A stretch of DNA of 64,000 bases, taken from assembly GCA_001662655.1 (NCBI GenBank), contig KV460219.1. The stretch is one strand, 5' to 3'. Source of the DNA: Pseudogymnoascus verrucosus. Its lineage: Eukaryota. Below, one piece after another: positions 29,427 through 41,012 of this stretch; position 1 is the first letter of the stretch; each line of letters starts with the position of its first letter. The notes under the pieces are model-generated. The model was given only the letters and a program-made list of their open reading frames with translations. It did no database searches and was not told the origin of the DNA. A program made the translations under genes and the position numbers.

Positions 29427-29834
29427 ATTGCCGTTGCCACTATCTGCCGTCATTGTCTGCGCGAGGAAGGAACGACCAAAGAGAGAGATTGGAAGCAAGC
29501 GATATACCCGGAGATATTTTTGTTCGCGGAGGTGAAGTCGGATCAATCAACTGTGAGGTTGAGGTGAAGTCGAACTATCGGACCTTCATTTGAAGTCTAC
29601 CTACCACCGCGATCGTGAGCTTCATTGACGTACATCGCCTACACTACTACCACACCAACCGACCGAGGTATATCCCGGACTGCTATAACACCCACTCAGA
29701 TACACACGCATCGACTTCACTCCATCGAGCGCACAGCTTTCACACCGCGTCTCTTTGACTGCTCTCCTAGCGAGACACTCCAGTCACCTCATCTCACCTC
29801 ACTCACCCCATTGTCCATACCCACCACACACACA

Positions 29835-31316
29835 ATGGCCGGCAAATCCCCACCCATGATGAAGCTGAAGCTGGCCACATCCGGCACAAAAATCAGCCAA
29901 AACGCCCCCTACCCCCGCGGTCTCTCCTCCCGCACCCTCCAACGCCAGGCCGCAGCATCCACCTCCTTCCCCAACGACACCCTCTCCCAACTCACCACCC
30001 CCCCAACCACCACCCCCCGCCCCAAACTCCCCCCCCTCTCCATCCTCCCCCTCCCCCTCCTCCTCCGCAACATCCTCATCTCCTCCATCTCCTCCTCTCG
30101 CCTCCTCCTCCCCCCCTCCCTCGCAATCCTCTCCTACCTCGCCTCCTCCCCCTCCGCCTTCCTAAACCCCGACCGCAACCCCCTCCTCCGCGCCCTCCTC
30201 AAGCGCACCTTCTACGCCCACTTCTGCGCCGGCGAGACCCCCACCGAAGTCTCCCGCACCATCGACTCCCTAAAGTCCATGGGCTACAAAGGCGTCATGC
30301 TCTGCTACGCCCGTGAAGTCGTCCTCGACGCCAACGCCGCCGCTGCCCTCGAAGCATCAGGCGGGAAAGCCACCGCGGCAACAATCACAAACGAAATCCT
30401 CCCCTGGAAACAAGGGACTCTCAAGACCGTCTCCCTCGTCGCCCCCGGCGGATTCGTGGCTGTCAAACTCACAGGCGCGGGAAGCCAAGCCCTCTACAAC
30501 CTCTCGCACAACCTCGCACCCAGCCCCGCTCTCGAAGACGCAATCACATCCGTCTGTGACCTCGCTGCGGCCCGCGGCGTCCGCCTCGTATTCGACGCTG
30601 AGCAGGCCGCGCTCCAGACTGGCATCGACTCCTGGGTCCTCGATCTGATGAGGCGCTACAACAAGGAATCCGCGGTGGTCTACTCAACATACCAAGCCTA
30701 CCTCAAGGGCTGCCCCGCAGTCCTCGCGCGCCACCTCGCCGTCGCAAGAAAGGAGGGGTTCGTGGCCGGCGTGAAATTAGTGAGGGGGGCGTATATCAAC
30801 TCCGATCCACGACACCTCATCAACGACACGAAGGAGGACACGGATATAATGTACGACGCCCTCGCCGAGTCCGTCCTGCGCCGCACCTACAACTCTGTTC
30901 TCCTCCCTGCAAGTACCGAAGAAGCAGACAAATTCCCAGAAGTCAGCCTCGCCCTCGCCTCGCACAATCCCGAGTCAGTCCGCCGCGCCATGGCCGTCCA
31001 AGAATCCCAAGCCGCCAAGGGCGAAGCACGCGTAGAACTCGTATACGGCCAACTCCAGGGTATGGCTGACGAAGTGAGCTGCGAGCTTGTCCAGCGCGCT
31101 GTCGAGGTCGAGGGACAGGTCGTCGTGGGGGGGGAGGAGAAGACGGTGGTGCCGCAGGCGTATAAGTACCTGGTTTGGGGGACGACGGGGGAATGTATGA
31201 AGTACCTTGCCCGCAGGGGGCAGGAGAATAAGGATGCGGTTGAGCGCACTAGGGAGGGGAGGGATTTGATGGCTAGGGAGGCGGTGAGGAGGGTTAGGGG
31301 GGTTTTTGGGTGGTAG
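29835..31316 (+). CDS. PUT1: Proline dehydrogenase (proline oxidase), mitochondrial
   Basis: TFYAHFCAGE, FDAEQ, TYQAYLK, GVKLVRGAY, LASHN, QLQGMAD and YLARRGQEN. ATG in context ACAATGG at 29835. Confidence 0.95.
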   Translation: MAGKSPPMMKLKLATSGTKISQNAPYPRGLSSRTLQRQAAASTSFPNDTLSQLTTPPTTTPRPKLPPLSILPLPLLLRNILISSISSSRLLLPPSLAILSYLASSPSAFLNPDRNPLLRALLKRTFYAHFCAGETPTEVSRTIDSLKSMGYKGVMLCYAREVVLDANAAAALEASGGKATAATITNEILPWKQGTLKTVSLVAPGGFVAVKLTGAGSQALYNLSHNLAPSPALEDAITSVCDLAAARGVRLVFDAEQAALQTGIDSWVLDLMRRYNKESAVVYSTYQAYLKGCPAVLARHLAVARKEGFVAGVKLVRGAYINSDPRHLINDTKEDTDIMYDALAESVLRRTYNSVLLPASTEEADKFPEVSLALASHNPESVRRAMAVQESQAAKGEARVELVYGQLQGMADEVSCELVQRAVEVEGQVVVGGEEKTVVPQAYKYLVWGTTGECMKYLARRGQENKDAVERTREGRDLMAREAVRRVRGVFGW

Positions 31317-32716: not shown

Positions 32717-34896
32717 ATGTCCGGACTCGAATCCTCCAGAGGATGGCACCGAGTAAGTCCCCCCCTTTCATTGCTCTTCATCCCCTACTCTCATCGCTTT
32801 TCATCGCAAGCATTCTTGGGCCTGTGAAAGCAAAGCCGATGTTTTTGCCTCTTTGATCGGCTCAACTAATCGGCTACTATCGCTTCCTTTCTCTTGCTCT
32901 GTCCCTTTGTCCAGACTTCCTATCATGGCGGTGCTATCCGCCTTGTTCCCCAACACGTCTTTGTTCCCACATCCTCCCTTCTCATTTCTCACCCTGGAAT
33001 CAACTATAAGTTTCCTTCCTTCCAGCTTTTGCTAACCCACCACCACCAGACTCGCAAACACACGGTCCGGCTGGGTTCTCTCGGCATGGCCAGGAACGCT
33101 GCGGGTGCCCTCGTCTACCGCGCGGATGGTCAGACTGAAGTTGCTGCCGAGGAGATCGGTGAGTCCCCCCTCCGCTCCATTCCGCAATCAACAAGCTCTC
33201 TAACTCACCATCCAGAGCAATACGCCCGTCTGTTACGTGGAGGGTACTATCCCTCCCACGAACACCCCTGGGAGACGGTGCCAGTCCCGGAGAGACACGC
33301 CTGGGGTCGTCCGCCCGCACCCCAGCGCCCACCGGGACTTGGGGCTGCCACTTCAGAGAACGCAGCGCTTTGGTATTTGATTCCGGAGGCAGAACAATTC
33401 TGGCCGGCCGAGGTAAGCCGCTCTCTTCCTTTTCCTTCCTTGCCTTCTTTCTTCGTTCACTTCTTTCATGGACCGGAAGATTGGCCTCGCTTCTTGATCT
33501 GGATCTGGACTGACTTTTTTTTTCTTCCTCTCACAGTTCAGACAATTCGACCGCAGATACGCGGGTGCTCTGATCACCCCACCAGTGATCATCATCACCA
33601 GCGCCGGTGGACCGATCCGTCGACCAACGGGTCAAGTCGCGGGTCAAGCCGCATCACCGAGCCCGGCTGCTTCAGGTTCTCAAACTGGTCGCACCAGTCG
33701 CGGTGCTTTCGTGCAGCTCGCCGGATGTAAGTTCTCCTCCTCCGAAGGCCGCGCTTGTGTGGACTTATTCGGCTTGATACTGACTTTGAAAAGTCTTCAC
33801 CGTTGACCAGCTCCGGAGCTCAGTGGTCATTTTTCCACCCCGAAACATGGAGGGCGAGTCCACCGCTCAACAAGGACTATCTTTAGCAGGTGGTGGCAGC
33901 ACTCTTCCTCCTGTGGCTCCGCGTGGTTCTGTCTTTCACAGACCACAGTTATCCGCATCGGCTCCTGCGTTCATCCCACGCACAGCTGCGCCAGAATTCT
34001 TTCCGCGTGCAGCCACGTTGGCCGCACAGCCCGCTACTTCGGTGACTGTCACGACCTTTCCTTCTTCGACTGCCGTGGCTACTTCCAACCCCGTCCCGAT
34101 CGTTAACCTGCCTCCCCCTTCCGCGAGTGTGGCATCGAAGCCGGCAGCCACACCGAACTGTCCCAGCGAAGATTCTCGCATGGTCGTTCTCAGCGGGATT
34201 CCAGGGTGGGTGTCCGTTGCCAACATGGCAGATTCCGTCTCCTCTGGCCACTACGGGGCATTATTTGCAATCCAATTCGGTGCAGACTACGGCAAGCTCT
34301 GTGCCCGCATCATCTTCCGAGATGCGGCAAAGATGGACATAAACCCCGGTGCAACACCCGGGGCGAAAGGATACTTCGATGCTCTCACGGCCGCAAAATC
34401 CCAACCCTGGGCCGACCGAAGCAGGGCACTCTGGCCCTTCCCTCCCGGATGCGCCGTCGACGTCCGCTTGGAGAATTTTGCAGCCAACGCCTTCATCCTT
34501 GGCATGCGCCCAAGCCTCGGTGAGGATGGGAAGCGAATCCAGGCAGTCAGCCGACGCCTGAGCCTGGTGGGGCTTGAGCAGCTGTTCAGCAGCTTCGGGG
34601 AGAAGGAGATGAGGAACGCCGTTGTGGGTGGTGGCTTCGTTCGCGCGTCGAGCATCGAACGAGTGTGCATCTACAACTCCGGCAACGCGACGATAGTCTT
34701 CGCGGACGTGCCTTCGGCCGTCCAGGCACTCAAACGATTCGAGACTTACAACACCAGCGTGAACGACGCCCTCAAGATCAAGGCGTCTCACTCCAAGGAC
34801 CCTTGCGAGGTCGTCGTTCAGTACACCCCGAACGACTCCTTTGCTCCCCAGCCGACAGCTTACCCGCCGCCGCGTCCCCGGCCCGGCCCAAAGTGA
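32717..34896 (+). CDS. Putative RNA-binding protein (two divergent RRM-like domains, tandem PAM2-like motifs), 5 exons, 544 aa
   Basis: Exons 32717-32752, 33050-33158, 33216-33412, 33537-33726 and 33794-34896 total 1635 nt in one frame. Donors are GTAAGT, GTGAGT, GTAAGC and GTAAGT with CTAAC/CTGAC branch sites. RRM-like segments SRMVVLSGIP..ARIIFRD and SRRLSLVG..NATIVFADVPSA..KDPCE. Confidence 0.72.
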
Positions 34897-36271
34897 TCTT
34901 TCACCGGAAACAGAGGAGGCCGTTCTTGATTCGCAACGGAAAGTTTCGTGTTTTCGTACGTGGGCGGCTCTATCCCTCCCGTCCCCTTTGGACCGGTAGT
35001 CGCCTTGCAGAACTTATCTGCGGTTGGTCTGGCGTTGCTGTCTGTGTTTTTGCCACAGCGGTTTCCTTCGTTTTTTTGGGGGGGGCCGCTGTACGTGGAC
35101 AGCGACGTCAGGCCATCCCGCCATCCAACATGGTTGTGCTGCTCTGCGCGCTTTCGTTTTCTGGATTACCCCTTTACCTCTCCTGGTATGGGGCGGGGGT
35201 TGCTGCCTTTGTCGTTCCACAGCAGCTCCTCGGGGCTGCTGCACGTGGGCAGCAACTCCTGGCTTCTTTCTCGTGAGTGCTTTAGTTCTTGAACAAGGGT
35301 TCTATCCATAGGACCTGGTCCGGTTGTCGTGCTTTCCGAATCGACTTGTGTTGAGGATTCTCACGAGCCTGAGTTCTCCATCTTTAATGGGAGTGTGATA
35401 ATCTCTCGGTCATCAACCAGCGACTACCTATCCGAGATCTTGATCAAATCGGTATCAGACACCGCATTCTCACCGAAGTTGGTACTAGGACTATTTCAAC
35501 GGCTTCGCAACTCGACTTGGCTATCTGTCCAGGCACCCTCCATCGGATCCATCCGCATACGAGCATACTTTTCATCTCCTATTTCCAGTTTCGCTAGCTT
35601 TTATATGACTTCGCATTCATCGACTTTGGCTTTTTTACCGCGAATTTGTTACTTTGGCTCTTTTGTGCGACTCTGCATGTTTCTGCGCTTTGGCATCTGT
35701 TTTGGCTTGGTACATTGAGTAACTCTGCAACTTTGGTTTCTTCTTTCGGCATTGGCGGCTACTTCTCGACTTGGTGCGCATATTCATCGACAGCTTCTGC
35801 TTTTCCTTTCTGTACGAGTAGACAGAGAAGTCAATAAAGCGTGCTTTTAAATTGAGGTCCTCCTGAATGTGGCTGTGAATGTGAATGTGACATAATTGCG
35901 GTGATAAATGCGAGTAATAGAGTGAGGAATTGTGAATGGGCGAAGGGCGTGAAGGGTTCTGTGATTGTGAATCCGCAATCCTGTCTCATTTCACTCCACT
36001 CACTGATCAATAACTTCACAGCATTTGAACAACGAAAGATGACACGGTAGATAAAGCGCATTGATTCTCCGGGCTAATTCACGGCTTAGCCAAGAACACA
36101 ATATAATACGGTACGATATGGTATGGTATACACACCCAACCTCCCAACTCCACCCCACCTTCCCAAACGCCATCCTCACCCAAAATCACCACCCCATCAT
36201 AGCAAACCCATCCACAAACGCCAACCCCCAATCATACATTTTACAAGTCTCCCCCCCATCTTCATCCCCCC

Positions 36272-39200
36272 TCACGCACCACCACCTCCACTCCCAATAT
36301 CAAAAATATTCAACGGCCACGCTCCCCCCGTCGTCGCACCCCCACCATCCCCCATCATCCCCCCCCCCTGCTGCTGCTGCTGTCCTCCCATAACCCCCCC
36401 ACCCATCTGCCCCATCTCCGCCCCTTGCCCCCCTCCTCCTCCTCCATCCCCAGAACCCCCACCCATCTCCCTCCCACCAAGTTGCATCAGCGCACTCGCG
36501 CTGTAACAATCCTGCGGTTCCAGATTCCCCGCCATAGTCGACGTCCACAGCTGCCACGACTGCGACCCAGAGTGCGGATTCCCGTTCGCCCCGGTAGCGG
36601 AGCCATTAACGCCCATCCCGCCGACGCTGTTCCCCGTGGCGGTGTTGGGTTGGGCGTTTGATCGCACGGGCCATGCGGCTGGTACTTGTGATGCTTGTGC
36701 TGCGAAGGCGGCGAGAAGGGGCGCTTCGACGCTGTCGCTCATGCCGGGTGTGTAGGCGTATCCGTGCTCCTGTGGTTGGTACGGTACTCCTGATGATGCT
36801 GGCGGGTCGGGGTAGTACTGTGTTGCGGCTGGGTAGGGTGTGGATTGGTGGGCAAGACCTTGTTGGTCGGGTGTGAGGTATGCATTTCCGGCTGTTGGCG
36901 AGCCGTGGGTGTTGTCGGGATATTGGTTTGTGAAGGTGGAGGTAGAGGGTTGGGGGTATGCGCTAGGATTCGCGTGAGTGGGTGTAGCTGTGGTGCCGGT
37001 GGTAGAGGGAGCGGCGTTGGTGTTTTGGGATTGTGGGCGGCGGGAGGGTGATTTGGAGTGCTCGGCTGCCGCTTTGCTTTGAAGGTTGCGGCTCAAGAGA
37101 CCGATTGTACCATCAGTTACAACGCGGACGGCTTCGCGGAGGCGGGTGCCAGAGCCTGGCGATGTTAGTCTTTGTAGGGATAGAAATTGGAATAAGGTAA
37201 GACATACCGAGTAGCGCGCCAATATCACCCATGATATTCAGCCACTCATCCATCTCAACTCTCAGTGCCGATAGGTCCGAAGCAGTCGTCTCATTGCGCT
37301 TCTCCCACTGCGCAAACAGTGTCGTAGTAATCGCCATCACAAATACAGCGCTATTATACCAAGTCGTATCCAAACTCTTGAAAGTCTGTAGTTGCTTCGC
37401 AGCCACAAGCATCTGCCCTGCGCACTCGACACAGATTCGCATGCTCTCCGTATTAAACGCCACATCTTGCGTCATAGACACAGCCGGGTGTCGTAGCAGC
37501 ATGCGGAACTCGAGACCCCATAGCTCAGCGTACAGAGCGAAAACGCGGGCCTCCTGTCCGTTCGACGCTGACGAGGTAACGAGCTCGCTTGGCAAGCCAT
37601 CGCGCCACTCCTTGATCTTGGCCTCGAGCGTGTGCACGGCCTCCATGTATGTGTCTGGCGACCGTTGCACGGTGTATATCGTGCTGAACATGCCCAGGAA
37701 TAGCGCGTGGACCTTGAAGGCCTGCAGGCCGATGGTATGGAGGCACTTCCCGCTTCTCTGTGACAGGGGCATCTCGAGCTCGGCGAATACTTCATCGTCC
37801 ATTGGCTCTGGAATTTCAACATCGAAGTCCTCGAGGCGGAAGGGCATGGGGCGCCCCAGCTTGCCGCTCAGTGTAATACTGATGACGAGGATTGACCAGA
37901 AGATACGCTTGCGGATCTCCTGGTCGTAGGCGCTCACGTCGCTGTCAGGTCCCCATCGCTTGACTGAGCGGTGCAGGCCGAGCTCCATGGCAAATATTAC
38001 CGTCACCCGCGAGAGGATCCAGCTGGCGCCTGGTTTGGGGAAATTGCGAAGGTGTGAGCAGACCAACGCCATGGCCTGCGCGTCTTCAAGAGTGTGGCTA
38101 CATGATAGGTCGTAGAACATGCCGAGCGCGTAATGGTAGTGGAGGTTGGACTGGGCGTTGAGGTAGGCTTGCTGCGACGAATCTTCCAGGTTGCGGACAG
38201 AGTATTGGAAGAACATGATCGCGAAGACCATGTGGATCATCACGGTCTGAGCGACAGTCGGGCGGAAACTTGGGTCATCGTAAACGCGAGTCAACTATCG
38301 TATATTAGAATCCTAAAGGCAATTTGAGAAAGAGGGCAATACATACCAGAGCCATGAAAGTTCCCTTGTGAAGAATTGGCATAAATGAATTGATGACGCG
38401 GAAGAACCATTGTGCATATGTGATCCCCTCTTCCCTATCAGGCAGCTTGACCTTATCAAGCTTCGGGTTGATATTGAGGGCACTCTGCAGGAAGGCTTGG
38501 TACGACTTATTATATAAATTCGGGTGTAGCGTATTCTGCTCCGGCTCATCGAGATCCTGCGACGGGAAATCGGTAATGTCAATCTCCATCCCCAGAATCG
38601 ACAGCGCCGTGCCCTTGATCGAGCTCAACGCCGACTTCGGCGGCAACACGCCCAGGTAGTTATCTCCAGGACATCCTGCTCTAAACGCCGGCAGCGCGCG
38701 GAACAGATTCGTCTCCTGTGGGTTCGTGGAAGCGTTGTGGCTCGGCGTCGGAGTCGCGTACACGCTGGAGTTCGGACCCGCAGTCCACATCGACGGGAGA
38801 CCATTCTGAGAGACGTTGTTGTAGTACTGGGCAGCTGGCTCTGGGAAGGTATTCGATGGCTTAACTTCAATGCCATTCTGCATCAATAGGCCCTCTAGCT
38901 CGCGGATCCGCGACGATTGATCGCGGTTTTGTTGCTCGATTGACTCCACGTAGCCTCGCGGGGCAGCGCGGCCGGTGATGCGGTCCGTGGTTCGACATTC
39001 TGTATTATTTTGTAGGCAAGGCGAGCATCCATTCGTCAGGCCATCGCAGCGAATCTTCCGCACCTGTGAAAATCAATCAGCGACTATAATTTAGTTGCGG
39101 TCTCCCCGCGGTCGCATTGCCTGGGGCCGATCCGGCAGGGTTTAGTTAGTTATAGGGGACGTATGCGCCGTACCTTGCATCGGTCGCAGGCCTGACCCGT

Positions 39201-39323
39201 TCTGGTCGACGACTGTAGACGCTTCTTGACTGAGTTGGAGAAAGTCTCTGGCTTCGTTTCTGGCTTTGGTAACTTCGCTGGCGTGCCCGTGGGCGACCCT
39301 GAGGCCGTTCGCTTTGGAGGCAT
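36272..39323 (-). CDS. Zn(II)2Cys6 transcription factor with fungal middle-homology domain (Cat8/FacB-like cluster region), 4 exons
   Basis: Spliced GQACDRCK|VRKIRCDGLTNGCSPCLQNNTEC..PRGYVESIE, ELGLHR, RKRIFW and KLGRP. Exons 39323-39174, 39063-38347, 38294-37208 and 37155-36272. Confidence 0.9.
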
Positions 39324-41012
39324 TGGGTGAGCTCGAGGTGGTGCGGAGGATGCCGTGCTTAGGATGCGTATGGAAGAAGCCGAAGGTGACGGAGACAGGG
39401 ACGGCGACACTGAATGATGACCGAGATGGTCTCGATGAGTTTGTCGCAACGCGCCCACGACAAGCTGAGACGATAACGACAACGACGACGCCGTGTTGTC
39501 GCGAAGGAATCGATGGAGATGGTGGTTTTGGGTGTCTTGAGTGCTCCAAGAGCCCATTTTTGGGATCTTGTGGGATTTTGTGCAGTGGACAGGGAAAACG
39601 CGCTAATTTTCGAGGCTGGGGGGCTGGCGTGTAAATACCACGGCGCTGGATATCACTGTGATGGGATATATAGGGAGCACCGTGCATCACATTGAGTATA
39701 TATATATATAATATATATATAAAAATGTATTAATGAGTAAGAAAGAGTATGGGATTTGAGGATATTTGGGATTCGAAGGGGGTGGGAAATGGACAAATGG
39801 GATAGGGATGGAGAACAATATATCGAACGACTTTCATACTCTCTGCCGCCTTTATGAATATTGATATTGACATTGATATTGGCTGTCTTGCATTCTCAGG
39901 ACTGCGCGCATAGCTATGTGTAAGATAGCAGGTGCATATGTATAATGTCTTTCTTTATATTTATTTTTATATCATATATTTAGACTTGGCTGCATCGTGA
40001 ACAAGCTTCTTCCTTCATACGAGGAAGTATGGACACCCTGCTCAGCCCCGCCAACCACATCATACAACTCTGTCAGCGTCAACTCTGTCATCATCCAGAT
40101 CTCAGACCCCTAGGAGACCCCGATGAGCCAGGTTTAGTCTAGAGCGTCTGGGGAGAATCAACCGGACCAGCATACTACCACATATACGGTGCAACGTTCT
40201 TTCCCAGCCTATCATGAGTTACAAAGCGCCTGAGCCAGCCGTCTGTGAGTGACAGGTCCTGTGCATACATCCATACATCTTTCTGTGATGAATGCGGCTG
40301 AGCATCTTTGCAGCACCTCACCTTAAGAAATCCCCGAATACGGCTGGTTCTCGTCCTACATCGACGATTCTTTGTCACCGCATCGTGGCTGACTGATGGT
40401 CTCTCTGGACATATTATTGGCATGTCTCTATATATACTTCGTATCGGATGTTCCTGGACAACCAACCAGACAAGCCGATGAGGTAGCTACCGGGCATCCC
40501 GGGGCGGCAGGGTAGATGCCGATGCATGTTGAAGCTGCAGATGTGGATATCCTGCAATGAACATCAGCCCTATGGCCGCCGGGTTATGTGAGATGCGGGT
40601 TGTTCACTTTCTAGTGGACCATTTATTAGCATTTGTCGCCTAAACATACCCCGCCGGGGCATATCATCGACCATCGACATGTCAAAAACAACCACAACCA
40701 CAACCACAGATATCCCATCCCGACCCAAGCAACCGCCGTCTTCGTGTCTTCCCGCAACTGCATCTCCTGAAACAATACCAAGAATTCCCAAGGGCTCTAT
40801 TCTGGAAACTATTCTAGGCCTCATCTCACCTCACCCGCACTGAAAATCACGGGATCGGCGATTGGACCCCAAAACTCAGCTGAACAGCTCTGCCCCGCCA
40901 TCCCCCACCATCACCGCCACCACCACCACAACCCAAGACATCCAGCGCATATACCTCTCCTTACTCGGCCTCATCACGCCTTCCGCGTACGACCTCACCT
41001 TCACCGCCCCCA

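What the first reader, a model, noticed from the sequence alone, without database searches (positions are those of the whole stretch)
32717..34896. Orphan-looking RRM protein with an eRF3-style overlapping double PAM2 motif
Seen: five exons assemble into a 544-aa protein that the ORF track shows only as fragments. At 33949-34005 it reads LSASAPAFIPRTAAPEFFP, in a low-complexity linker before two divergent RRM-like domains. Known: PAM2 motifs (LxxxAxxFxP) bind MLLE domains of poly(A)-binding protein. As I recall it, mammalian eRF3 carries two overlapping copies, LNVNAKPFVPNVHAAEFVP, with the same 19-aa length and 9-residue Phe-Phe spacing. Inference: this may be a lineage-restricted mRNA regulator that couples RNA recognition to PABP or another MLLE protein and could compete with release or deadenylation factors. 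I do not recognise it as a named family.
Basis: partly seen in the sequence, partly recalled or inferred. Interest (0 to 1): 0.7.

Follow-up and report, generated by a model that had tools for sequence, protein, structure and literature searches.

The report
Fungal RRM protein with double PAM2
A fast-evolving, unstudied RNA-binding-type protein of Pseudogymnoascus fungi carries two overlapping copies of the short peptide that docks onto poly(A)-binding protein, laid out exactly as in human eRF3 and kept across the genus, so it probably hooks onto mRNA tails, although neither binding nor expression has been measured.

Summary
The five exons give a 544-aa protein identical to an NCBI Pseudogymnoascus gene call. 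Residues 230-248 match the eRF3 PAM2-N/PAM2-C register at all seven key positions, lie in a predicted disordered linker, and arose by a 9-codon duplication. All 14 genus relatives with an intact linker keep at least one site (9 the first, 8 the second, 3 both). The C-terminus folds as two RRMs. It is not an orphan: it is a diverged member of an uncharacterised Leotiomycete family (e.g. Botrytis BCIN_05g07990) whose RRM pair is homologous to the Nrd1/Msa2-Mrn1 pair. This lineage lacks the family's N-terminal RRM, its SWAxxA motif and the RNP aromatics, and has the PAM2 pair instead. Best reading: a Pab1-MLLE-docking mRNP regulator (docking about 0.75; docking plus RNA binding about 0.5). Limits: Pfam PAM2 score is under the cut-off, RNA binding is doubtful, nothing is measured. 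Overlapping PAM2s are known from eRF3 and plant ataxin-2, PAM2 plus two RRMs from plant CID8-13, and this genome's own Sup35 has overlapping PAM2-like repeats. New variant of a known kind; moderate interest.

The parts
32717..32752 (+). Exon 1 (codons 1-12, start ATG)
   Evidence: same N-terminus in KFY70496.1 and homologous start in P0002; P. verrucosus VE01_03982 is annotated from Met25 instead
33050..33158 (+). Exon 2; start of a genus-specific conserved N-terminal region (residues about 17-135), no known fold
   Evidence: AlphaFold pLDDT under 50; no Pfam or Atlas hit; no match in 148 outside family members (best E 0.077)
33216..33412 (+). Exon 3; includes the conserved LIPxxxQxWPAE block (33374-33409), which fits the L...A..F.P pattern here by chance but is not a PAM2
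   Evidence: Trp is the conserved residue, the Ala and Phe are not
33537..33726 (+). Exon 4
33794..34896 (+). Exon 5 (AAG acceptor): linker, double PAM2, tandem RRMs, stop TGA
   Evidence: contig of run X1 shows only frame-keeping indels (-3, +27) in this exon
33919..33936 (+). Conserved PxGSVF block (residues 220-225) just before the PAM2 pair; unexplained
   Evidence: P 10, G 9, S 8, V 8 of 12 other aligned relatives; also survives in relic copy L003
33949..33978 (+). PAM2 site 1 (eRF3 PAM2-N type): L230, S231, A234, F237, P239
   Evidence: present in 9 of 14 relatives
33970..34005 (+). PAM2 site 2 (eRF3 PAM2-C type), sharing F237: F237, P239, R240, A243, E245, F246, P248
   Evidence: present in 8 of 14 relatives; 27-nt tandem duplication 33955-33981/33982-34008 with 4 of 5 shared residues on synonymously different codons
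34174..34473 (+). RRM-A (residues about 305-404), beta-alpha-beta-beta-alpha-beta, RNP aromatics absent
   Evidence: (Z 9.2, rmsd 2.0, 76 aligned to RBM22 RRM; ties with other RRMs)
34546..34803 (+). RRM-B (residues about 429-514) with family signature RR..., YNxGNAT and SKDPC
   Evidence: (Z 9.4, rmsd 2.0, 79 aligned to PTB RBD34; ties with other RRMs)

Best explanation
[quoted passage not shown] Shown by sequence or model: the gene structure, the two overlapping PAM2 sites in a disordered linker, their conservation, a rigid pair of RRM folds descended from the Nrd1/Msa2-Mrn1 type, and an intact MLLE pocket in Pab1. Inferred from eRF3: one MLLE binds either site 1 (L230 + F237) or site 2 (F237-P239 + F246), one at a time because F237 is shared, so the overlap raises affinity and gives redundancy without changing the 1:1 ratio. 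Inferred: the RRM pair holds RNA by a non-canonical basic and polar surface (invariant R430-R431, Y470-N471, G473-N474, conserved R306, R352), and docking on Pab1 replaces the N-terminal RRM and SWAxxA motif that Helotiales relatives have. Occupying the MLLE would displace Sup35 and Pan3 on target mRNAs and so change their deadenylation, decay or storage, most likely towards repression as for Mrn1/Nrd1. I put MLLE docking at about 0.75 and the full model at about 0.5.
For: Seven-position register match to eRF3. Position-by-position fit to the structural definition in PMC2854688 section 6: site 1 has L, S, A, F, P at positions 3, 4, 7, 10, 12; site 2 has F, P, T, A, E, F, P at 1, 3, 5, 7, 9, 10, 12. 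14 of 14 relatives with an intact linker keep a site; in the 12 tested by shuffling 0.115 were expected by chance, while the RRM pairs are mostly 43-58% identical. In the MAFFT alignment F237 and P239 are each kept in 11 of 12 other rows while most flanking columns are kept in 0-4. Losses of site 1 (5) and site 2 (6) never coincide (p 0.028; 0.071 after dropping two dependent rows). Duplicated unit has diverged at silent sites but kept A, P, F, P, R. Region is under pLDDT 50. Pab1 keeps 15 of 18 named pocket residues including KITGMLLE. In a fungus, L, F and P at these positions were each required for Pab1 binding (Upa1; PMC11572963 section 9). RRM folds. Homology to the genome's Nrd1 orthologue: HHalign probability 95.8, E 8e-9, 171 columns, against 25 for Pab1; it was the best of 1015 frames from the RRM and other loci fetched (42 bits; next unrelated 14.5).
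Against: Pfam PAM2 score 12.4 bits, below the cut-off of 20; no relative passed it either. Site 1 has Ala at position 5, a change that cost Paip2 five-fold affinity, and lacks the preferred Asn and Glu. The linker is rich in A, P, S, T, so a bare AxxFxP core arises in 16% of shuffles. Only 3 of 14 keep both sites, rows are related, and F237/P239 counts are fixed by the anchoring. RNP2 position 2 and RNP1 positions 3 and 5 are non-aromatic in both RRMs, and aromatics kept by outside relatives (F/W at 308, Y/F at 346, W/F/H at 468) are replaced in this clade. The clade's own profile does not detect Nrd1; the link runs through the wider family. Verified PAM2 motifs were dispensable in Ustilago Upa2 and Upa1 (10.1101/455378 passages), so docking may matter little. 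The direction of the effect on mRNA is borrowed from distant relatives.
Confidence: 0.5

Rival explanations
1. It docks on Pab1 through the PAM2 pair, but the RRM pair no longer binds RNA: it is a pseudo-RRM platform for a protein partner or for dimerisation. The protein is then an adaptor or a Paip2-like competitor that reaches mRNA only through Pab1.
For: All canonical RNP aromatics are absent, including those that outside relatives keep; the N-terminal RRM found in 69 of 74 outside relatives is undetectable in 11 of 11 clade members; no Pfam RRM hit; the PAM2 gain coincides with these losses on the tree.
Against: Invariant Arg pair and YNxGNAT hairpin are shared with relatives that keep aromatics; RRMs without RNP aromatics can bind RNA (general knowledge; PTB RBD34 is among the tied top fold matches); the sister rows P0017, P0019, P0020 also lack the N-terminal RRM yet have no strict PAM2, so the two events are not one.
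Confidence: 0.25
2. The repeat is a conserved short motif for some other partner, or a low-complexity duplicated element that merely resembles PAM2; no MLLE is bound.
For: Sub-threshold Pfam score; A/P-rich context; the adjoining PxGSVF block is equally conserved and is not part of PAM2; five relatives lack the Leu that was essential in Upa1.
Against: Those five all keep the F-x-P-x-x-x-A-x-x-F-x-P form in which Phe replaces the Leu pocket in the eRF3 PAM2-C crystal structure; the conserved positions are exactly the MLLE-contacting ones and the solvent-exposed ones vary.
Confidence: 0.15
3. The physiological partner is the other MLLE protein of this genome, a Doa10/MARCH6-like RING-variant membrane ligase with two inserted MLLE domains, so the motif acts as a degron or recruits the mRNP to the ER.
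For: A genome search finds only two MLLE proteins, Pab1 and this ligase; its first MLLE keeps 10 of 18 pocket residues, with mostly conservative changes.
Against: Pab1 keeps more of the pocket (15 of 18) and is the abundant, known PAM2 receptor in fungi; nothing links the two genes; the ligase's range in fungi was not examined.
Confidence: 0.08

Closest known systems
eRF3/GSPT1 overlapping PAM2-N and PAM2-C (PMC2854688; PDB 3KUI, 3KUJ)
   Same: Identical spacing of L, A, F, P, A, F, P and a shared central Phe; second site begins with F-x-P in place of Leu.
   Different: No GTPase domain or any homology to eRF3; arose by a local 27-nt duplication; first site has S-A instead of N-V at positions 4-5; either site decays in relatives.
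S. pombe Nrd1/Msa2 and S. cerevisiae Mrn1 (4-RRM family; PMC8783092 passages, PMC3261880 abstract; PDB 2RT3)
   Same: Collinear homology of the tandem RRM pair, linker and C-terminal SKDPC/GKDRC end to the genome's own Nrd1 orthologue.
   Different: About 20% identity; one pair instead of two; RNP aromatics lost; the true orthologue is another gene (G000:C26); PAM2 pair added.
Uncharacterised Helotiales three-RRM family (e.g. Botrytis cinerea BCIN_05g07990, Glarea, Sclerotinia, Hymenoscyphus proteins)
   Same: Same C-terminal RRM pair (profile without the clade scores this protein 79 bits); a family member's best match in this genome is this gene.
   Different: They have an N-terminal RRM (69 of 74) and an SWAxxA motif (112 of 126) and rarely a PAM2 pattern (6 of 126); this clade has the reverse, plus its own N-terminal region.
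Plant CID class D (CID8-CID13/RBP37) and class B (CID3/CID4) PABP partners (PMC4574140, PMC4105795)
   Same: Class D: PAM2 followed by two RRMs. Class B: two overlapping PAM2 motifs likened to eRF3.
   Different: Described in land plants; class D has conserved RNP1/RNP2; no homology was tested, convergence is the likely reading.
Ustilago maydis Upa1 and Upa2 (PMC11572963, 10.1101/455378)
   Same: Fungal PAM2 ligands with demonstrated Pab1 MLLE binding that needs the same L, F, P positions.
   Different: Endosomal adaptors without this RRM pair; PAM2 copies are separate; the Rrm4 machinery is reported as most likely lost in ascomycetes (10.1101/467787).

Membership tests
PAM2 motif | Hydrophobic residue at 3, Ala at 7, Phe at 10, Pro at 12 (PMC2854688) | tested here: met
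   Site 1 L230/A234/F237/P239; site 2 F237-P239/A243/F246/P248
PAM2 motif | Asn or Ser at 4; Pro, Val or Thr at 5; Glu preferred at 9 | tested here: inconclusive
   Site 1: S met, A and A not met. Site 2: R at 4 not met, T and E met
PAM2 motif | Pfam PF07145 gathering score of 20 bits | tested here: not met
   12.4 bits, E 0.13; relatives P0012, P0087 and P0098 score 12.0-13.5
PAM2 motif | Lies in a disordered region and is conserved above its flanks | tested here: met
   pLDDT under 50 over residues 95-301
PAM2 motif | Binds an MLLE domain | not testable with these tools
   Needs ITC, NMR or pull-down; receptor pocket is intact
eRF3-type overlapping PAM2 pair | Two sites offset by 9 residues sharing one Phe | tested here: met
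   F237 and F246; complete in 3 of 14 relatives
eRF3/Sup35 proteins | Translational GTPase domain | tested here: not met
   No such Pfam hit; the genome's Sup35 is at G000:C66
RRM superfamily | beta-alpha-beta-beta-alpha-beta fold, twice | tested here: met
   AlphaFold pLDDT 95.9, pTM 0.91 with 77 sequences; each half Z about 9, rmsd about 2 over 73-79 residues; 143 Foldseek matches at E<=0.001, listed ones almost all RRM proteins
Canonical RNA-binding RRM | Aromatic residues at RNP2 position 2 and RNP1 positions 3 and 5 | tested here: not met
   RRM-A V308, C346, R348; RRM-B S433, N474, T476 (positions assigned through the alignment with Nrd1)
Canonical RNA-binding RRM | Binds RNA | not testable with these tools
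   No assay possible
Nrd1/Msa2-Mrn1 family | Homologous tandem RRM pair ending in G/S-K-D-x-C | tested here: met
   HHalign 95.8, E 8e-9; control Pab1 25; L014 named through PDB 2RT3, E 5e-33
Nrd1/Msa2-Mrn1 family | Four RRMs and orthology | tested here: not met
   Two RRMs only; the four-RRM orthologue is a separate gene
Helotiales three-RRM family (unnamed) | C-terminal pair with RRL[ST], YNxGNAT, SKDPC | tested here: met
   clade nests among these rows in a quick tree
Helotiales three-RRM family (unnamed) | N-terminal RRM and SWAxxA motif | tested here: not met
   0 of 11 and 0 of 12 clade members against 69 of 74 and 112 of 126 outside
Plant CID class D | Sequence homology of the RRM pair | not tested
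   Architecture matches; no plant sequence was fetched
Neurospora SAD-7 (meiotic silencing RRM protein) | Orthology to NCU01917 | not testable with these tools
   No sequence obtained; supplement of PMC5555490 too large to read; no Neurospora name among the 100 hits listed

The most novel reading that the evidence does not exclude
In the Pseudogymnoascus lineage an Nrd1-derived RNA-binding protein was rewired: it gave up its N-terminal RRM, its SWAxxA motif and its RNA-contacting aromatics, and by one 27-nt duplication evolved, independently of animals and plants, an eRF3-type double PAM2 that makes it a high-affinity Pab1 competitor or adaptor displacing Sup35 and Pan3. The genus then preserves a natural allelic series (site 1 only, site 2 only, both, never neither) that would directly test the proposal that overlapping PAM2 sites are redundant and that a Leu-less PAM2-C site suffices alone.
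Probability: 0.3. Interest if true: 0.6.

Novelty: new variant of a known kind. Interest (0 to 1): 0.42.

Why it matters
PAM2 ligands of Pab1 in filamentous ascomycetes are little described in the papers searched, and this family, with members across the Helotiales including Botrytis and Sclerotinia and a copy in P. destructans, has no paper under the four locus tags searched. If binding is confirmed, it adds a third independent origin of the eRF3-type overlap (after eRF3 and plant ataxin-2), supplies natural site-1-only and site-2-only variants for testing the redundancy model, and shows a short motif replacing RNA-binding parts within one lineage. The mechanism class, PAM2 docking on MLLE, is textbook, which caps the surprise.

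Tried and rejected
Co-folding of residues 220-254 with the MLLE of a Pseudogymnoascus Pab1 (P0118, 697-779): no verdict, score 0.33 in three runs against a mark of 0.34, controls 0.01, alignments not used, peptides untested by the tool; not used as evidence either way. RNA evidence: no RNA holder listed; the one run, X1, is a contig that spans the introns, so no junction was seen. Sequence search of PDB with A1 found 0 matches and with A2 only weak RRM matches, best E 0.06. Atlas search of residues 14-200 gave no usable hit; full-length AlphaFold with 21 sequences was poor (pLDDT 44), so the N-terminal region has no fold assignment. Metagenome locus scan returned 1 locus (L012, a Helotiales-type member) of 82 pattern matches, with no blastn match to the window, so synteny and dN/dS could not be tested. 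Idea that the family's SWAxxA motif is a PAM2w variant: rejected, Phe at -7 in only 13 of 50 and Ala at -3 in 18 of 50. LIPEAEQFWP as a third PAM2: rejected, Ala and Phe not conserved. P0002 lacks the motif, but its annotation reads another frame through this stretch, so it was left out of the counts; also left out: fragments without the linker (P0004, P0005, P0016, P0021, P0048, P0042, P0061, P0080, P0099, P0314, P0315, P0317) and cluster duplicates (P0097, P0098, P0316; P0001 = P0312). SAD-7 orthology could not be tested. The careful tree did not finish; only the quick tree was read. HHalign A6 against A5 is inflated because A5 holds three clade members; one search is the clean test. Earlier findings of the scan: none by sequence, place or the five-word query.
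Full report
1. Observation. Joining 32717-32752, 33050-33158, 33216-33412, 33537-33726 and 33794-34896 gives one frame of 544 codons and a stop; the four introns (297, 57, 124, 67 nt) begin GT, end AG and carry CTAAC or CTGAC near the 3' end. The product is identical over 544 of 544 residues to KFY70496.1 (Pseudogymnoascus sp. VKM F-103), and residues 25-544 equal P. verrucosus VE01_03982. These are independent gene predictions, not transcripts. A contig of run X1 covers the stretch with 129 substitutions; its indels in exon 5 are -3 and +27, a -1/+1 pair four bases apart lies in exon 3, and the rest fall in introns or behind the stop, which fits a frame under selection. Intron 4 ends in AAG; an in-frame CAG 30 nt further on is an alternative that leaves the motif intact. 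Bases 33949-34005 encode LSASAPAFIPRTAAPEFFP, residues 230-248, the only double match in six frames of the window. In 200,000 shuffles of the 125-aa linker the double pattern arose once, site 1 in 0.93%, site 2 in 0.14% and a bare AxxFxP core in 16%. Pfam PAM2 scores 12.4 bits, under its cut-off of 20.

2. The motif. PMC2854688 (passages; section 6) gives eRF3 contacts L69, A73, F76, P78, A82, F85, P87; L230, A234, F237, P239, A243, F246, P248 have the same offsets. By that paper's definition site 1 meets positions 3, 4 (Ser), 7, 10 and 12 but has Ala at 5 (five-fold weaker in Paip2) and no Glu at 9; site 2 meets 1, 3, 5, 7, 9, 10, 12 and has Arg at 4. The pair is a 27-nt tandem duplication: 16 of 27 bases match, 5 of 9 residues are kept (A, P, F, P, R), and 4 of those 5 codons differ silently. 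AlphaFold gives pLDDT under 50 for residues 95-301 (a shallow alignment, so only consistent with disorder).

3. Conservation. Searches returned a clade of 16 rows with support 96 in a quick tree; every named member is Pseudogymnoascus, several are unnamed. Their RRM pairs are mostly 43-58% identical, whereas Pab1 of another strain is 93% identical to this genome's over the region searched. Of 14 non-duplicate relatives with an intact linker, 9 have site 1, 8 have site 2, 3 have both and 14 have at least one (rows left out are listed under Tried and rejected). For 12 of them, shuffles expect 0.115 matches in all. In the MAFFT alignment F237 and P239 are each kept in 11 of 12 other rows, A234 in 10, A243 in 9, F246 in 8, L230 in 7; most flanking columns in 0-4. 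An adjoining PxGSVF block is conserved as well and is unexplained. Five losses of site 1 and six of site 2 never coincide (p 0.028, or 0.071 without two dependent rows); rows are related, so this is suggestive only. Both subclades hold a full double (P0312/P0313 and P0012), so the double form is probably ancestral and decays at either end, as the redundancy proposed for eRF3 predicts.

4. The domains. With 77 sequences, residues 302-524 fold at pLDDT 95.9, pTM 0.91, into two beta-alpha-beta-beta-alpha-beta units. Each half aligns to solved RRMs at Z about 9, rmsd about 2 over 73-79 residues, with many ties; Foldseek lists tandem-RRM proteins with low whole-chain TM-scores (about 0.3), so the packing of the pair matches none closely. 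The Atlas places the domain with Ascomycota 'RRM domain-containing' clusters at 0.91. The RNP2 and RNP1 aromatic positions are V308, C346, R348 in RRM-A and S433, N474, T476 in RRM-B; outside relatives mostly keep F/W (40 of 60) at 308, Y/F (34 of 60) at 346 and W/F/H (55 of 60) at 468, which this clade has replaced. R430, R431 are invariant in 77 of 77 rows and the YNxGNAT hairpin nearly so.

5. The family. It is not an orphan. A profile search gave 92 representatives and a second search 100 hits, named ones from Botrytis (BCIN_05g07990), Sclerotinia, Monilinia, Glarea, Hymenoscyphus, Cadophora, Lachnellula, Rhynchosporium and others, annotated as hypothetical or RRM proteins or with evidently automatic names. 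A profile without the clade scores the window protein 79 bits, and a member's best match in this genome is this gene (E 2e-5), so it is the probable orthologue; synteny was not testable. Outside the clade 69 of 74 have an N-terminal RRM against 0 of 11 inside; 112 of 126 have an SWAxxA motif against 0 of 12; 6 of 126 have a PAM2 pattern (0.72 expected). That excess suggests the family picks up PAM2 motifs sporadically. The clade's N-terminal region matches none of 148 outside members. The family profile aligns along the whole RRM3-RRM4 pair of a four-RRM gene at G000:C26 (HHalign 95.8, E 8e-9, 171 columns, 20% identity; Pab1 control 25), which is the S. pombe Nrd1 orthologue (PDB 2RT3, E 5e-33) and the best of 1015 frames tested, taken from 30 of 93 RRM_1 matches plus other fetched loci. 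The clade's own profile does not find it, so the link is indirect. Mrn1 and Nrd1/Msa2 bind U-rich RNA, tethered Mrn1 promotes decay (PMC8783092 passages), and Nrd1 joins Pabp-positive granules (PMC3261880 abstract).

6. Partners. The genome has two MLLE proteins. Pab1 keeps 15 of 18 pocket residues named in PMC2854688, with KITGMLLE intact. The other is a RING-variant ligase with two MLLE domains keeping 10 and 7 of 18. In Ustilago, L132A, F139A and P141A each abolished Upa1 binding to Pab1 MLLE, Kd 15 uM (PMC11572963 section 9); yet all four Upa2 PAM2 motifs were dispensable for growth (10.1101/455378 passages).

7. Mechanism. Most likely the protein docks on Pab1 through either site, one MLLE at a time, and holds mRNA through a non-canonical RRM surface, displacing Sup35 and Pan3 and shifting targets towards decay or storage. 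Gene, motif, conservation, folds, ancestry and receptor pocket are shown computationally; docking (about 0.75), RNA binding, competition and direction of effect are inferred (whole model 0.5). Rivals: Pab1 docking with pseudo-RRMs (0.25), a non-MLLE motif (0.15), the ligase as partner (0.08).

8. Novelty. Overlapping PAM2s are in print for eRF3 and for plant CID3/CID4 (PMC4105795 passages and section 9); PAM2 plus two RRMs for plant CID8-13 (PMC4574140 passages). I found no paper on this gene or family: the locus-tag search gave 0 papers, and searches listed none that describes it (listings only, except the papers named here). The library lacks most subscription papers, and supplements were not searched, so expression data may exist there. 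SAD-7 (PMC5555490 passages) is a sexual-cycle RRM protein with missing aromatics and could be related; its supplement was unreadable. Rrm4-type MLLE proteins are reported as probably lost in ascomycetes (10.1101/467787, first of two parts). PMC7356810 (passages) was used only for the PAM2w test.

9. Verdict. Observation confirmed; interpretation partly supported. A new variant of a known kind: a convergent eRF3-type double PAM2 on a rewired, fast-evolving Nrd1-related RRM protein, with a useful natural allelic series, but a textbook docking mechanism and no measured binding or expression. Interest 0.42.

Noticed in passing
L005/L006 (G000:C7:375629-379033): A RING-variant + DUF7889 protein of Doa10/MARCH6 type (family name from my recognition of the architecture) carries two inserted MLLE domains (Pfam MLLE 86.9 bits); the first keeps 10 of 18 pocket residues. 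None of the 15 papers listed, of 208 holding two of the terms, contains 'MLLE'. An ER ligase with PAM2-receptor domains may deserve its own look.
   Followed up: partly
L050:847-1350 (G000:C66): This genome's Sup35/eRF3 N-terminus has three AxxFxP cores spaced 7 residues apart, so each Phe sits at the Leu position of the next: an overlapping PAM2-like array in a different register from human eRF3.
   Followed up: partly
L052:1031-1276 (G000:C43): Pan3 has two PAM2-like motifs in one exon.
   Followed up: no
L008:1500-1900 (G000:C7:43137): A 2276-codon open frame with several PAM2-like repeats; no Pfam family at E 0.1 for the stretch scanned.
   Followed up: no
L002:1501-1735 (G000:C88) and L003:1299-1647 (G000:C4): Two decayed copies of this gene with stops or frame changes; L003 keeps PRGSVF and a broken first PAM2 site. 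With the truncated duplicate P0087 in the strain that also has P0009, this points to repeated duplication and loss.
   Followed up: partly
window 34894-34929: The stop TGA stands where close relatives have Gly and continue for about 11 residues; the old tail is still readable up to the next in-frame stop.
   Followed up: no
proteins P0017-P0096, P0237-P0310: An [ST]W[AS]x[IVL][AV] motif precedes the RRM pair in 112 of 126 outside family members; its partner is unknown to me.
   Followed up: partly
L011/L013 (G000:C3:88434-88661, minus strand): A second Nrd1-related tandem-RRM paralogue with non-aromatic RNP2, bridging this family and Nrd1 in searches; a candidate to compare with SAD-7.
   Followed up: partly
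window 29619-31316 (+) and 36272-39652 (-): Neighbours look like a proline dehydrogenase and a Zn2Cys6 transcription factor (recognised from the translations, not searched); no link to this gene seen.
   Followed up: no
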